This document shows, in pieces, positions 22,301-53,600 of a stretch of 64,000 bases of DNA (positions are counted from its first letter, which is position 1; every line of letters begins with the position of its first letter). Where the stretch lies: positions 32,488,001 to 32,552,000 of the forward strand of contig OX597824.1 of NCBI GenBank assembly GCA_951406725.2. Direction: 5' to 3'. Origin of the DNA: Octopus vulgaris. Taxonomy: Eukaryota. Position numbers: made by a program.

Positions 22301-25300
22301 TTTAAAGAATGGCATTAGAGAGGGAAATAGGTTACAACAATCTGCTCCAACAGATTAATGTAATAAAAATATATTGCAACAAAATGAAAACTTCTAAGAA
22401 AAGCAAACACACAAAAAAAAATTGAATGATTACCTGGTATTTATTTGCCACCTCCTTTCCATTAACACTAAAACTTAATATTCCTGTGGCTGTATCAATG
22501 TAGCAGCCAATAACAAGACCTGGTGAGGATTTTTTGCTTGATTCTTCATGAGTTCCACCGTAACGCTGTTGTAATACACCTGCACATACCATATAGCAAT
22601 TTTTGCGGCTTACACTGAAATGAAAGAACATAAAACATTAACCATCATCACAACCACCATCACTACCACCACCAGCCATTCAAGAATTTGGACCTGGAGA
22701 TCTCCATTTCCAGCGACCTCGAGGGCTACCTCCCAGTGGTGTCGGGCGTCAACGAAGAGCCCTCGACTACAACAAGATGACCAAAGTTTTTTTTTTCCAA
22801 GGTCTGGGGTCTCCCACCCCTAAGCCCTAGACCATCACCTAATCACCCTTACCCATCTTGTTGCATAACAACAACAACAACCACCACCACCATCATTACT
22901 AACATAATCATCTTTATTACAGTCATCTTCACATCTGTTTTCCCATGCTTGTGTGGGTGGGACATAAAAGTATTTATATTTCAGAATGGTCATTTTCCTT
23001 AATTTTTTCTTGCCAAATATTTGGCAAGGTGAAAAAAAAATGACCATCCTGAGATATAACAACATATGTTTCAACACATGGTTTCACATCAGGAATCTTT
23101 CAAAACAAATTCATAAATATATTTATTTTCCTAATTCTAATGTTATGATGAATGAAGTAGTTATTTAGGTCTTAAAAGAGATAATCACCACCAATGGTCA
23201 GATATTAGTGTAATTAAAGTAATTTAAATAATACGCTGAATATCTGATGAATGATATTTTTAAAATCAAATAATATACATTATATAACAATTGCAGCGTG
23301 GAAGGTGTTTATAAGCCATTTAAGAAACACAAAAACCGTTAGATTCACTTCAACATTTAAATTTAATTTGTCAAAATATTTTCGTCATTTGGAGACTGCG
23401 AACTGTTCACTGACAGATGCAGCACGGAGTTTTGTCTGTGAACAGGTCGCAGTCTGAAAGTGACGAAAATATTTTGACAAATTAAATTTAAATGTTGAAG
23501 TGAATCTAACGGTTTTTGTGTGTTTCTTATAAACACCTTCCATGCTGCAATTGTTTTCGTTCCAGCACACGATCTCAGATCATGTCACTTGCTATGCAAG
23601 TACATCTCTGTAATACATTATATAATTATTGATAAAAATATTTTGCATTTAAAAAATATTCAAATATTTTGTTGTTTAGTACCAGATACTTCATAAATTA
23701 TAAAATATGTATCAGTACCTTGTATACTACTTATGGTATAAATAATAGCAACACTAGTAATAAAAGTAAAAATATAAGGATTACCTTTGTCTGTATTTAT
23801 ATTCTACATCTTGGGTTGAGATGATGACATTCCTGATCTTCTTCATATCGAAGGACCTGCCTCCCATGTGAAAGCCAGGGGTGACCCAACCAACATATAG
23901 CTGATTGGGGTCCTGCCCAGGGAAGATGCGTACAGAATAGTAATATTCATGCATTGTTTCAGTCAAGGCATTCATTTCAGCAATTTCAGCCTCGGACATT
24001 TCATAGTCGGAACCCATAGAGACATTGCTGAATCCATGGTGTATATCTTTGACATCCTGAAACTCATATGGAATCAATCCATCAGGACCTTCGATATTAA
24101 TTGCAGGGCTGCCACCTTCCACATCACCCTTATGCATATTCTGAGAACCAGCTATAGATCTGTTGGAGCGTTGAGACCTGCCAAGTTTGCCAGGTTTCAA
24201 TGAATCGAGTGTTTTAGATTTCACATCTCGAGGAGTTGGAGAAGGTTCCCTGGATTTTGATCTTCGAAACAGTGTTGCAAATGGTGACTTGGAATTTTTA
24301 GCTGCTTTGCTGGCCTTTGGATCACTGAGTTTTTCAGCCAAAAGAGAAAGTTTGGAAGTAGATTTCTTTCTCTCATTATCAATTCCTAAATAACCGTCGA
24401 CCAAATGAGATTCACTCGCTGCAGTCTTCATGCCGGGAAGACTAGAATCATGCAGAGTTGGTTCATCTAAAGAATGGTGGGCATTTTTGTTCCTCAAAAA
24501 GGATGTTCTTCTTTGATCAGCATCAGACAGAGATTCGTCACCAGCATAGTCATGATGAAGTGCTATGAAAATCAAAATAAAAAGAACATTCCATTATAAG
24601 AAATAGAACTTTGAAGTTTCAGTTTTATTAGAACTGGCTCAACAATTTCTTCAAACATACTAACCATAACATTGTAGACGAATCGTGATAACCATTTAAA
24701 ACACATGTAATTGTTATATTCACCTTCATTTTATTTCATGATAGTATTGAGTACTTTAAAGCAATGATTCTTTACCTGGAGTGACAGTGCATGACCTAGT
24801 GATAAGGGTGCAGGGTCTGGTGGTTACAGTGTTGCATGCATGATTGCAAAATCATGGTTTTGGTTCATAGACTAGTTGGTGTTGTGTTCTTGAGCAAAAC
24901 ACTTCACTTTATGCTGCTTCTGTCCACTCAGCCATAAGAGAGTAACTCTGCGATGAATTGGCACCCTATCCAGGGGGAAATATTGTGATCTCAGTCATTT
25001 ATACACCAGGAAAACTGAGTAACTGACCCAATGAGTCCTAGGACTTGAGACCACTAGCATAGCTAGATGGGGTGGAGGGGGCGGTCCACTCCGGGTGGTA
25101 CTTTTCTGGGGGTGGCACTCTTTTGGGTCTGCTGTAGGCAATATGTATTTTTTGTGGGGGCTGAGGGGCAGCAAACTGAAGGGCTACCTGGCAGCACACA
25201 CTCTAGCTACACTACTACTTGAGGCAGTGCTTAACTTGGCCAAGAGTACCCATCTGAGCATGTTCTGTGCTGACAAGGAGATGGCAAATATCAAGAGCTG

Positions 25301-50620: not shown

Positions 50621-53600
50621 ATATATATTCTGGACTTGGTGACTGGTTTACAAGATTTAATTCTGATTTAGTTCTAATAAAATCAGTTGACAATTAAGCA
50701 CTAAATCTATAAACTAGTCACCAATTAAAGGAAATAGCATACACTATTTGAAGTGCAGTTAGTTAAAATTCAGATTATGTTTGATCTGAAATATAAATCA
50801 ATAATGAGAATTATGTTTTATAATTTATAAAGTGGGGAAATAAAAAAAAAGAAATGTAGTTTTTCATAGATTCAATTCTGTTAAAGAAATCAGAGAAATA
50901 CCACTACTATTAGTTGAAGCGAATGTGGCTTTGAGAAATGAACAGTTTCAATTTGGCGTAGAAGCAAACTGAAGTATTTGACACTCTAAAATTATCTGTT
51001 GCAAAAGTTTCTCAGAATTGTAGATTATATTTTAATACCAAAAAATATTTACTTTAAATAATGAATCAGACATTTTACTTGTTAGATTTATATATATAAC
51101 TCCAATAATGGCTGGAGTTCAATATTAAAATTCAATCTATTATTGTTGTCTCTCTCTATTACAAATTCTGCTAAGGGCAAGCCAGAACATATTTACCATA
51201 ACTATAGTTAGTATTACTAATATTCTGTTACTGTAATTTATTTTAACTAAGATTTTTTTAAAATTTGACTTAGAAAGAAAGAGAGGTTTTTAAACGTTCT
51301 GGTGCTTTGGATCCAGGTTCAATTCTTTCCCAAACCTCTTTGTTGTGTACATGGACAGGATAGTTACAAAACAATTAGCTGAAATGACGTTAAGAATAGT
51401 TTCTATTCACTATAATTTTGGCCTTAAATTAAGTAATTAAACTTCAAAGCTGCTTATAAAAATATTTCTACTTGAATGTATATGTAAAGGTATGACAATA
51501 TATGTTATAAAAACCAAGAAAGTGAGAAAGTTAAAAATATGAAATGCTTCAAGCAGGTAGTTGTGAAAAATAAGATTAAAAAAAAAAAGCAATAAAATTA
51601 TAAACAAAAAAAAAATGTGTAGATTTTTTAAAGAAGAATATCTCAAATCAATATCAGGAAAATAGTACAGTTATTCTGAAGAAGACATGCAATACAAGCT
51701 TGAGAAGCAATTTATTTAGAAAGAATTGTTCAAAATCAGAGAATGAAAAATTATCTTTAATAATCTTCGTTTATTAGATTAATTATGTATTTTACAATTA
51801 AATAAAATCAAAATTATTCATTGAAGCAGCAGAATCAAAAGCAGCAAAACTTGCAGCTAGTTTGTTTCTGGAGATCAACCTTGAATAAACAAAAATGTTT
51901 TTCTCACAAGATTAAATCTTTTTGTTAATAATTTAGTATTTGAAAAAAAAAACAAACAATAAAAAGTGAGATATTTTAATGAAACAGATACATGCTGTAA
52001 TTAATTGTACAGAACATTTGTGAGAAGAGTCCATTTGTTTGTTATGAAACAGGTGAAGTATTAATGAAAACCTTGTAATGTGAGTTAGTCATTTAATAAT
52101 GTCAGAGATTCTAAAAGCCGTATTTTAATAAAGAAAAGAAACAAAATGGTAACAAGCAAAGAAAGTAGAATCTACTTACCAGCAATTACTTTGCTTCCTT
52201 TTTCAACTGAAGCATCACTTATATTGGCATCGCTGTAGTTCTGGCCTGGCATATCAGCATAAGCATTTCTCTCCTCTTCAATGTCCATTTCATGACGTCG
52301 AATATTTTCTAAATTCATTTTGTGATCTATTTCAGACTGGATGGTTCTGTCCCTAAAAATTTCATATACATTATATAGTTTTATATAAGAAAAGCTTACT
52401 TTAGCATAAATTTTCTTCTTCATTTATATCATATGAACAAAACGCCCCCATCCAATGGATGGTGCTGAGTTGTCAAACATTTAAACAATTAAACATTTAA
52501 ACAAATTTTCTCAAAACAACTTGTCTGACCGTCCCATAGGCCTCCCCTTTGAGAAACACTGATTTAACCTAAATTTGAGACACCAGCAAAAGAAGAAATA
52601 AAGACAGACTTTTTTCTATTTCAAAGAATGCTTTATTGATCGCATTCTCACCTGGAATCGATTTTTATAATTTTTTCAAGACTTATACCCGCCCTGATAC
52701 CGTTGGTATCTACATATCAAATTTGAGTGCAATCAGATGGAGGATGTCCGAGATCCTAGAAGACACATACACAGACAAACAGAACGGATTTTATATAATA
52801 GATATACATAAGATCCAGTGCTTGTTACAGTATGGTGGCTTTATGTATCACAATAACCCTGAGAACTATGCCAGCAGAGAGCAAGTTCCTGGTAGAGCTT
52901 CCCATGTTGGAGAAGTCAAAAGATAAAAAAGTAAAAGTAAGGACCCTCTTTTGTCATGAATAATCATGGAATTGCACCTAAAAAGTTTCCCCTCAAAGCA
53001 CATCTGGGCAAGGTGTTTATAGAAGGCCAGCAGTTGCCCATGCATACCAGCCTCCCCTTTTCACACCACCAATATTATCCAAGGGAGAGGTAAAGGCTGA
53101 TACAGCTTGGTACTAGTGATATTGTAACTTATTTCTACAGCTGAGTGAACTGGAGCAACATGAAATAAAGTGTCTTACTCAAGAACACAACACACAGCCT
53201 TATCCAAGAATCAAACTCACTACCTCATGACTGTGAGTCCGATGCTTTAACCACTAAAGCCAAATGCCTTCAAAGAATAAAGGCAAAGAAATTATGAACT
53301 ACCACTTTCCAGAGGTAAAAATGGGTTTGCATATGGCCAACATCCCTGCTTAGAAAAAAAAAAACAAAGTTACAGAAGCATTGTTGATAATTCAAAATCA
53401 ACATAATGTGAGAAGTGAAGGCCTTCATTCAGGGAAACACTTGACACAAACTAAGTGGAAAGAAGCAGAAAAGACAATTCAAAGTTATGAACAGTGGGAA
53501 AAAAGTCATTGATGGTCTGTGCTCCAGTGGGAGCAAAGTGCTTAAAGAAGTATACATGCACATACATATCTAAAAACTTCAGTATGAACTTTTCTGCTAT

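What the first reader, a model, noticed from the sequence alone, without database searches (positions are those of the whole stretch)
24563..52179. A 27.6-kb phase-1 intron in RyR divergent region 2 hides a set of symmetrical phase-1 exons, possibly a combinatorial splice module
Seen: all other introns here are under about 2.5 kb, yet this one is 27.6 kb and falls inside the non-conserved DR2 loop. It holds several stop-free exon candidates with 3n lengths and phase 1-1 ends (108, 57 and 9 nt, plus a weaker 21 nt). The DNA around the two best candidates (about 29000-31300 and 41000-43300) has few recognisable transposon copies. Known: DR2 lies in the SPRY region, differs between vertebrate RyR isoforms and is implicated in excitation-contraction coupling; invertebrates generally have one RyR gene and diversify it by splicing. 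Inference: this single RyR may build muscle and neural isoforms by mixing DR2 cassettes.
Basis: partly seen in the sequence, partly recalled or inferred. Interest (0 to 1): 0.72.

Follow-up and report, generated by a model that had tools for sequence, protein, structure and literature searches.

The report
Long RyR intron with two likely exons
A 27.6-kb gap in a ryanodine-receptor gene, inside its variable DR2 linker, probably hides one or two short in-frame exons, but whether they are optional, tissue-specific cassettes could not be tested here.

Summary
The sequence facts hold. On the minus strand the exon ending at 52180 and the exon starting at 24562 are joined by a 27,617-nt phase-1 intron, and the 23 other gaps between mapped exons are 235-2,957 nt. 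The intron splits about 260 unalignable residues that occupy the DR2 slot of solved RyRs.

However, a combined splice and codon score, with repeat-derived loci removed, puts the 108-nt (41481-41374) and 57-nt (30762-30706) candidates first and second of 9,387 candidates on both strands. Only 5% of those are frame-compatible. The two score 19-27, against 15-16 or less for the best control. Held-out real exons of the same gene score in the same range. The 9-nt and 21-nt candidates are at chance level.

No cephalopod transcript or protein could be reached, so inclusion, skipping and tissue use are untested. A combinatorial module is not shown. Alternative splicing of DR2 in a single-RyR invertebrate is already documented for C. 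elegans unc-68.

My estimates: 108-nt exon real about 0.65, 57-nt about 0.45, full combinatorial module about 0.08.

The parts
52180..52352 (-). Upstream RyR exon (173 nt). It enters in phase 2 and leaves in phase 1, and encodes ...DRTIQSEIDHKMNLENIRRHEMDIEEERNAYADMPGQNYSDANISDASVEKGSKVIA. No alignable relative was found.
   Evidence: The donor is G|GTAAGT. One search found no protein of 101-2000 aa that holds it.
24563..52179 (-). The 27,617-nt phase-1 interval between the two flanking exons. GC is 33%. At least 27% is dispersed or tandem repeat by within-window evidence.
23785..24562 (-). Downstream RyR exon (778 nt). About 204 linker residues are followed by the SPRY3 segment EYYYSVRIFPGQDP..., which aligns to RyR1 1432-1478.
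   Evidence: Short ORFs from other species begin their similarity at the same acceptor position.
41374..41481 (-). 108-nt phase 1-1 candidate exon encoding (D)TLKRIAGGTSDSSTTESHREGSLNISDTTEKSDGG(T). It is the best-supported candidate.
   Evidence: GC is 46%. Codon log-odds is 0.39 per codon, reached by 0.24% of intronic stop-free windows (0.05% with DR2-exon training, 1.5% without DR2 exons). It ranks 1st or 2nd of 9,387 repeat-free candidates and is 0% repeat.
30706..30762 (-). 57-nt phase 1-1 candidate exon encoding (A)DDFFPRHINGGPELTLRK(S). It has the strongest splice-site pair in the intron and a weaker coding signal.
   Evidence: It ranks 1st of 1,665 on splice score. For codon log-odds the null fraction is 0.03-0.07. 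It ranks in the top two of 9,387 and is 0% repeat. Its pyrimidine tract follows a T/ATT-rich simple repeat.
38188..38196 (-). 9-nt candidate (AAATGCTTG). At chance level.
   Evidence: It is one of 53 naive 9-nt candidates. It ranks 16th on splice score, and its codon test fraction is 0.20.
29336..29356 (-). At chance level.
   Evidence: It is one of 73 naive 21-nt candidates. It ranks 20th on splice score, and its codon test fraction is 0.34.
41497..41502 (-). A TGCATG hexamer 16-21 nt upstream of the 108-nt candidate's acceptor. The motif name (Rbfox-type UGCAUG) is recalled, not tested.
   Evidence: It is one of 16 gene-strand copies in the intron, about one per 1.7 kb. I noticed it post hoc, so it is weak evidence.
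27605..28027 (-). Mobile-element-like ORF tail. It is related to two further copies at 31709-32029 and 49773-49964, all on the gene strand.
   Evidence: E 3e-4; E 2e-9. The atlas finds eukaryote-wide unnamed clusters at 0.96 and a zf-RVT lead at 0.77. There is no Pfam hit.

Best explanation
The interval 52179-24563 is a repeat-expanded intron region at a conserved splice position inside the disordered DR2-equivalent linker of an invertebrate RyR gene. It is probably not empty. Two unique, GC-richer islands carry short exons that keep phase 1 on both sides. One is 108 nt (adding 36 residues, rich in S/T/D/E/G like the flanking linker) and the other is 57 nt (adding 19 residues). Because each is 3n and phase 1-1, either can be included or skipped without breaking the frame, so the most likely use is as optional cassettes that lengthen the DR2 linker.

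Shown: the splice signals, the frame compatibility, the codon usage, the unique-sequence context and the ranking against controls.

Inferred: that the spliceosome uses them at all, that they are optional rather than constitutive, and any tissue specificity.

The 9-nt and 21-nt candidates are best read as chance matches.
For: Frame and signals.

Splice scores: the candidates' acceptors (2.5, 5.9) and donors (6.3, 8.2) lie within the range of this gene's real sites.

Codon usage of the 108-nt exon beats 99.76% of stop-free intronic windows. The figure is 99.95% with DR2-exon training and 98.5% without DR2 exons. Of 19 held-out 35-codon pieces of real exons, 12 reach the top 5% and 5 reach the top 1%.

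Unbiased enumeration on the sense strand, all 9 frame/length classes: the two candidates rank 1 and 2 of 9,974, and both fall in the one compatible class (1,202 of 9,974, or 12%). They rank 1-2 in 6 of 9 parameter settings and 2-3 in the other 3.

All seven rival loci examined are 84-100% dispersed repeat or 94% tandem repeat, whereas the candidates are 0% repeat.

After repeat filtering, both strands pooled: 9,387 candidates, of which 468 (5.0%) are compatible. The two candidates are the top two loci under 3 of 3 training sets (19.1-27.4), and the best control scores 14.7-15.7. The chance that both top loci are compatible is about 0.0025 with strands pooled, or about 0.01-0.015 on the sense strand only.

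Calibration on the rest of the gene with held-out training: 19 of 23 mapped exons were recovered. Loci at or above the candidates' scores were real in 4 of 5 (fold A, at least 15.0) and 7 of 8 (fold B, at least 20.7).

Precedent: DR2 alternative exons in C. elegans unc-68 (PMC7644089, passages), and an optional 25-aa cassette in the DR2-like linker of Helicoverpa isoform models.
Against: There is no transcript, isoform model or cross-species evidence of any kind. Four database searches gave no cephalopod RyR.

The score is my own heuristic. It uses a hand-set splice matrix built from recalled consensus frequencies and a codon table from about 1,000 codons, and I added the repeat filter after seeing the controls.

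Before filtering, the antisense control strand reached the same score (23.0 against 22.4), and its top locus fell in the 'compatible' class in 6 of 9 settings.

A single-copy mobile-element ORF outscored real exons in calibration (53906-53784, score 29.4), so unrecognised element ORFs can mimic exons.

The 108-nt region is also open on the opposite strand, with similar codon log-odds under 2 of 3 trainings. With training that excludes the DR2 exons its combined score drops to 15.0.

The 57-nt exon's score is mostly splice signal that follows a T-rich simple repeat, and its coding test is borderline (0.03-0.07).

Nothing in the sequence distinguishes optional from constitutive use.
Confidence: 0.45

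Rival explanations
1. It is a plain single intron. A conserved intron position has been inflated by mobile elements and microsatellites, all four candidates are pseudo-exons, and only the direct 52180-to-24562 junction is used.
For: Equally strong splice pairs occur in incompatible phases and on the antisense strand. The antisense control reaches 23.0 before repeat filtering. At least 27% of the intron is repeat, with three related element ORF tails. Octopus genomes have long introns: median 2,467 bp in O. vulgaris and mean 5.4 kb in O. minor (PMC10700109 and PMC6279123, passages). The direct junction is in frame. Insect RyRs need no extra residues here.
Against: The two top loci of 9,387 repeat-free candidates are both frame-compatible and lie 4-12 bits above every control. 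The 108-nt candidate's codon usage matches the flanking linker exons. In calibration, unique loci with such scores are mostly real exons.
Confidence: 0.3
2. The 108-nt and 57-nt exons are real but constitutive. The interval would then be three ordinary long introns (about 10.7, 10.6 and 6.1 kb), and the linker is simply 55 residues longer than the direct junction implies. There would be no alternative splicing.
For: The exon-likeness evidence is the same as for the best explanation. The 57-nt exon has very strong splice sites, which is typical of constitutive exons. Nothing in the sequence requires skipping.
Against: Both exons are individually 3n and phase 1-1, which constitutive exons need not be (about a 1 in 3 chance for the pair, by inference). 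The 108-nt acceptor is modest (2.5) and has a TGCATG in its tract. The DR2 linker is alternatively spliced in C. elegans and varies among insect isoform models.
Confidence: 0.2
3. Three or more cassettes, including 9-nt and 21-nt microexons, are mixed combinatorially to build muscle and neural DR2 isoforms from a single RyR gene.
For: All candidates are phase 1-1, so any combination stays in frame. C. elegans unc-68 combines DR2 exons 10, 12 and 13 with tissue bias (PMC7644089, passages). A TGCATG lies at the 108-nt acceptor.
Against: The micro-candidates are at chance level: 53 and 73 naive candidates of those lengths, with codon fractions of 0.20 and 0.34. No expression data were available. 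Even in C. elegans only 6 of 16 possible combinations were seen.
Confidence: 0.05

Closest known systems
C. elegans unc-68 DR2 alternative-splicing hotspot (exons 10, 12, 13); PMC7644089, abstract and passages read
   Same: It is an invertebrate RyR, in a species with a single RyR gene according to the paper, whose DR2-coding region holds several optional exons. The isoforms are tissue-biased. The idea that splicing stands in for vertebrate paralogues is stated there.
   Different: In C. elegans the exons were seen in cDNA clones and deleted by genome editing. Here the exons are predictions only. There is no sequence similarity between the cassettes. Here they sit in a 27.6-kb repeat-rich interval. 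Whether this species has a single RyR gene was not checked.
Optional 25-aa cassette in the DR2-like linker of Helicoverpa armigera RyR isoform models (P0147 and 9 other isoforms)
   Same: It is a short in-frame insertion just N-terminal to the SPRY3 'YYYSVRIFPGQDP' segment, present in 8 of 10 isoform models compared.
   Different: It maps inside what is one large exon in this window (about P0147 residue 1484), not at the big intron. These are automated isoform models, and I did not check their transcript support.
Insect RyR mutually exclusive exon pair in the second SPRY domain (PMC6026295, passages read)
   Same: It is alternative splicing of the SPRY region of a single invertebrate RyR gene, and it is visible in the Helicoverpa isoforms (P0147 about 1136-1166).
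   Different: It is a mutually exclusive pair of homologous exons, not skippable cassettes, and it lies in a different domain. In this window only one homologue of that exon was found (59480-59400). The 108-nt candidate is not a duplicate of its neighbour exon.
Vertebrate RyR1/RyR2/RyR3 divergent region 2
   Same: The position is the same in the protein. The unalignable stretch lies between RyR2 1280-1314 and RyR1 1432-1478 / RyR2 1424-1473.
   Different: Vertebrates vary DR2 between paralogous genes. The DR2 coordinates (RyR1 1342-1403) and its role in excitation-contraction coupling are recalled, not tested. The linker here is about 260 residues, much longer than in vertebrates.

Membership tests
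Ryanodine receptor gene, DR2-equivalent linker | The flanking exons encode RyR segments colinear with known RyRs. | tested here: met
   Between 18 and 25 colinear coding loci map to insect, fly and camel RyRs. P0001 residues 205-251 align to RyR1 1432-1478 at E about 1e-9.
Ryanodine receptor gene, DR2-equivalent linker | The intron interrupts the stretch that occupies the DR2 slot between the two parts of SPRY3. | tested here: met
   The test is by position only. The upstream anchor is exon 54788-54669 to RyR2 1280-1314 (E 0.37, only RyRs hit) and to Drosophila RyR 1277-1316 (E 2e-6). The DR2 coordinates themselves are recalled.
Frame-preserving cassette exon | AG acceptor and GT donor of a quality comparable with the gene's real sites. 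| tested here: met
   The 108-nt candidate scores acceptor 2.5 and donor 6.3. The 57-nt candidate scores acceptor 5.9 and donor 8.2. Real exons score acceptor -8.8 to 10.5 and donor 2.8 to 11.6. The matrix is heuristic.
Frame-preserving cassette exon | The length is a multiple of 3, the phase matches both neighbours, and there is no stop. | tested here: met
   The junction codons are GAT/ACA for the 108-nt exon and GCT/TCA for the 57-nt exon, read from the sequence.
Frame-preserving cassette exon | Coding-like sequence beyond the intron background (108-nt exon). | tested here: met
   The null fraction is 0.0024 with all-exon training, 0.015 without DR2 exons and 0.0005 with DR2 exons only. Caveat: the antisense frame is also open.
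Frame-preserving cassette exon | Coding-like sequence beyond the intron background (57-nt exon). | tested here: inconclusive
   The null fraction is 0.03-0.07.
Frame-preserving cassette exon | Transcripts observed both with and without the exon. | not testable with these tools
   No RNA data and no eukaryotic genome or transcript collection were open. The protein searches found no cephalopod RyR.
Frame-preserving cassette exon | The exon and its splice sites are conserved in related species. | not testable with these tools
DR2 splicing hotspot of the unc-68 type | Several optional exons combined in tissue-biased isoforms. | not testable with these tools
   This needs expression data. Only the position criterion is met.
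Microexons (9 nt, 21 nt) | Signals that exceed what the intron yields by chance. | tested here: not met
   There are 53 and 73 naive candidates of these lengths. The codon fractions are 0.20 and 0.34. They rank 16th and 20th on splice score.
Recursive splice (ratchet) site in a long intron | An AG directly abutting GTAAGT. | tested here: not met
   None of the 10 internal GTAAGT sites is preceded by AG. Other donor variants were not scanned.
Tandem exon duplication (origin of the 108-nt exon from the upstream exon) | Significant nucleotide similarity between the two exons. | tested here: not met
   The local score is 22. It was reached by 25 of 500 shuffles, and 63 of 687 intron windows scored higher.

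The most novel reading that the evidence does not exclude
The interval is a true DR2 splice module. The 108-nt and 57-nt cassettes, perhaps with microexons, are included independently. A UGCAUG element in the 108-nt exon's acceptor tract sets neuron-versus-muscle choice. In this way one invertebrate RyR gene would reproduce by splicing the DR2 differences that vertebrates encode in separate RyR1/2/3 genes, which would be convergent with nematodes.
Probability: 0.08. Interest if true: 0.6.

Novelty: new member of a known kind. Interest (0 to 1): 0.4.

Why it matters
DR2 is the part of RyR that differs most between the vertebrate muscle, heart and brain channels. Whether single-gene invertebrates tune the same loop by splicing has been shown functionally only in C. 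elegans (PMC7644089). If the 108-nt and 57-nt exons are used as optional cassettes, a lophotrochozoan with a complex nervous system and fast muscle would be a second, independent case. The two exons would then give concrete targets for RT-PCR and isoform-specific work. If they prove constitutive or unused, the locus is simply a long, repeat-filled intron of no special interest. In practical terms, the two exons are worth checking against the gene model of this RyR, because a model with only the direct junction may lack 55 residues.

Tried and rejected
1. Reaching annotated or transcript-derived cephalopod RyR proteins. The downstream-exon peptide with 'longer' returned only a camel fragment, because the search stops at 2000 aa. 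The exhaustive representative search gave short genomic ORFs at 42-46% identity and one insect full-length RyR. The region search with that insect protein listed 120 of 888 hits, all insects. The upstream-exon peptide with 'longer' found 1 word-sharing candidate and none scored.

2. Exon-duplication origin of the 108-nt candidate, prompted by the shared NISD..EK and GTAAGTAGAT. It was not significant.

3. Recursive splice sites: none found.

4. Pfam on 18 intronic ORFs of 60-141 aa's listing, chosen by hand and including most of the longest non-repetitive ones and the antisense ORF over the 108-nt candidate: 0 hits.

5. Rfam on the whole window: 0 hits. tRNA scan of the intron: 0 genes.

6. 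Protein atlas on the 108-nt peptide: best score 0.81, which is chance level.

7. The TGCATG at the 108-nt acceptor. I kept it only as a weak post-hoc hint, because the gene strand of the intron has 16 copies.

8. The script failed on an assertion. The script used faulty trimming that dropped the DR2 exon from training. Both are superseded.

9. Splice score alone, and the combined score without a repeat filter, did not separate the candidates from the controls.

10. Literature. Searches for 'ryanodine receptor' with 'octopus' and 'alternative splicing' (5 papers hold the terms, 5 listed) and for 'ryanodine receptor' with 'cephalopod' (36 papers hold the terms, 20 listed) showed no title on cephalopod RyR isoforms. 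I read none of those papers. I consulted no supplementary files, although supplements of octopus genome or Iso-Seq papers may hold gene models that bear on this.

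
Full report
WHAT IS THERE. The window carries part of a ryanodine-receptor gene on the minus strand. Mapping insect, fly and camel RyR proteins onto it gives 25 colinear coding loci. The exon 52352-52180 ends with ...GCT G|GTAAGT, so the intron starts at 52179 in phase 1. The next exon starts at 24562 after ...TTTTCATAG and runs to 23785. The interval is 27,617 nt. The direct junction reads ...KVIA-A-LHHDYAGDES... 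without a break. The 23 other gaps between mapped coding loci are 235-2,957 nt, median 1,286, so this interval is about ten times longer than any other. For scale, the O. vulgaris annotation reports a median intron of 2,467 bp and O. minor a mean of 5.4 kb (PMC10700109 and PMC6279123, passages). The intron is long but not outlandish for such genomes.

DR2 PLACEMENT. The conserved tail of the downstream exon (residues 205-251) aligns to RyR1 1432-1478 and RyR2 1424-1473 in solved structures. The exon two upstream of the intron (54788-54669) aligns weakly to RyR2 1280-1314 (E 0.37, only RyRs hit) and to Drosophila RyR 1277-1316 (E 2e-6). The roughly 260 residues in between comprise 57 from the upstream exon and about 204 from the downstream exon. 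They align to no vertebrate RyR and occupy the DR2 slot (the DR2 coordinates are recalled). The intron cuts this stretch. The stretch is not wholly unconserved. Thirteen ORF-style proteins from other species share invariant residues, and their similarity begins exactly at this acceptor. That suggests, by inference, that the intron position is old.

ARE THE CANDIDATES MORE THAN CHANCE? All three candidates with coordinates are present as described. But incompatible phases and the antisense strand give equally good pairs.

The 108-nt candidate scores 0.39 per codon, which is reached by 0.24% of stop-free intronic windows. The figure is 0.05% with DR2-exon training and 1.5% with the DR2 exons excluded. 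The 57-nt candidate is borderline (3-7%), and the 9-nt and 21-nt candidates show nothing (20%, 34%). A caveat is that the 108-nt region is also open on the opposite strand, with similar log-odds under two of three trainings.

I then enumerated every AG..GT pair in all nine frame/length classes, of which only one is splice-compatible. The 108-nt and 57-nt candidates rank 1 and 2 of 9,974 on the sense strand. They hold ranks 1-2 in 6 of 9 settings and 2-3 in the other 3. At that stage the antisense control matched them (23.0 against 22.4). However, all seven rival loci examined turned out to be dispersed repeats (84-100% covered, up to 15 copies in the window) or tandem repeats (94%), whereas the candidates are 0% repeat. 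With repeat-derived loci removed and both strands pooled, 9,387 candidates remain and 468 (5.0%) are compatible. The two candidates are the top two loci under all three trainings (19.1-27.4), against 14.7-15.7 for the best control. The chance of both top loci being compatible is about 0.0025 (strands pooled) to 0.015 (sense strand only).

For calibration I used the same procedure on the rest of the gene, with those exons held out of training. It recovered 19 of 23 mapped exons. Loci scoring at least as high as the candidates were real in 4 of 5 (fold A) and 7 of 8 (fold B, where the eighth, 9854-9739, is probably an unmapped exon). The one clear false positive was a single-copy mobile-element ORF on the other strand (53906-53784). 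This shows how the method can be fooled.

WHAT THE INTRON IS MADE OF. At least 20.1% of it has another copy within the window and 11.0% is tandem repeat, 26.8% combined. Three related mobile-element ORF tails lie on the gene strand, with an atlas lead to retroelement-type clusters. There were no Pfam hits on the 18 ORFs tested, no Rfam family and no tRNA. None of the 10 internal GTAAGT sites is a ratchet site. The 108-nt exon is not a diverged duplicate of the upstream exon.

OUTSIDE EVIDENCE. I searched exon by exon only. None of the four protein searches returned a cephalopod RyR. So inclusion, skipping, tissue use and conservation are all unchecked.

The literature gives a clear precedent. 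C. elegans unc-68 has an alternative-splicing hotspot in DR2 (exons 10, 12, 13) with tissue-biased isoforms, of which 6 of 16 possible combinations were seen (PMC7644089, abstract and passages). Insects have a mutually exclusive exon pair in SPRY2 (PMC6026295, passages). The Helicoverpa isoform models I fetched differ by an optional 25-aa cassette in the DR2-like linker, present in 8 of 10 models. Searches for cephalopod RyR splicing showed no relevant title.

HOW IT MOST LIKELY WORKS. My reading is that a conserved phase-1 intron in the disordered DR2 linker was inflated by mobile elements and microsatellites. Two unique islands in it are short exons. Each is 3n and phase 1-1, so each can be spliced in or left out without affecting the frame. 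They would add 36 S/T/D/E/G-rich residues and 19 residues to a linker that is already about 260 residues long. The modest acceptor of the 108-nt exon, and the TGCATG 16-21 nt in front of it, fit a regulated cassette, but that is a post-hoc hint.

My estimates:
- 108-nt exon real: about 0.65.
- 57-nt exon real: about 0.45.
- At least one real: about 0.7.
- Optional rather than constitutive, given real: about 0.65.

NOVELTY. If confirmed, this would be a further member of a known kind, namely DR2 splice variation in invertebrate RyRs. It would be of moderate interest as a lophotrochozoan case and as a correction to gene models. If unconfirmed, the locus is an ordinary long intron.

Noticed in passing
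window 16146-17183 (-): A 345-aa open frame made of a repeating unit of about 35 aa (…HKRHYCWYHIKGTVAGVTLKTPVLVPHRKVLVLVS…). It is a long coding-phase tandem array inside the intron between exons 17995-17912 and 15926-15804. Related sequence occurs at 32953-33249 and 56492-56788 (read from the ORF list).
   Followed up: no
window 53610-53942 (+), locus 53784-53906: A single-copy ORF on the opposite strand, in the neighbouring intron, outscored real exons in my exon scan (29.4). Its sequence (…VQFAGHCCRAEKEVISTLLLWKP…GRTLSYPDVISRDTG…) looks like the tail of a retroelement polyprotein. That resemblance is recalled, not tested.
   Followed up: no
window 9739-9854 (-) and 11825-12001 (-): These are probable RyR exons that the insect proteins did not map or barely mapped. 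9854-9739 scores 22.1 with no tblastn match. 12001-11825 scores 26.4 and is matched only by the camel fragment at E 0.013.
   Followed up: partly
window 23785-24562 (-), alignment A1: The 'divergent' linker encoded by the big exon has residues invariant across 13 ORFs from other species (R18, S30, S49, S69, K70, S72, L73) and motifs such as SKLSLL and KSPF…SRDPSP. It also aligns to Drosophila RyR. In protostomes this DR2-equivalent region is therefore partly conserved and may hold phosphorylation-type motifs, which is an inference.
   Followed up: partly
whole window: TGCATG is over-represented: 93 matches against 55.5 expected, and 0 of 100 shuffles reach 93. This is partly because overlapping copies occur in ATGCATGC-type simple repeats.
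   Followed up: no
window 59400-59480 (-): Only one homologue of the exon that insects have as a mutually exclusive SPRY2 pair was found here. The Helicoverpa isoforms show both versions. A second, more diverged copy was not searched for specifically.
   Followed up: partly
window 35148-35765 (both strands): A block of about 600 nt of trinucleotide-type simple repeats is open in several frames on both strands (poly-L/T/Y/V translations). It produced a spurious top 'exon' at 35512-35355 under one training set.
   Followed up: yes
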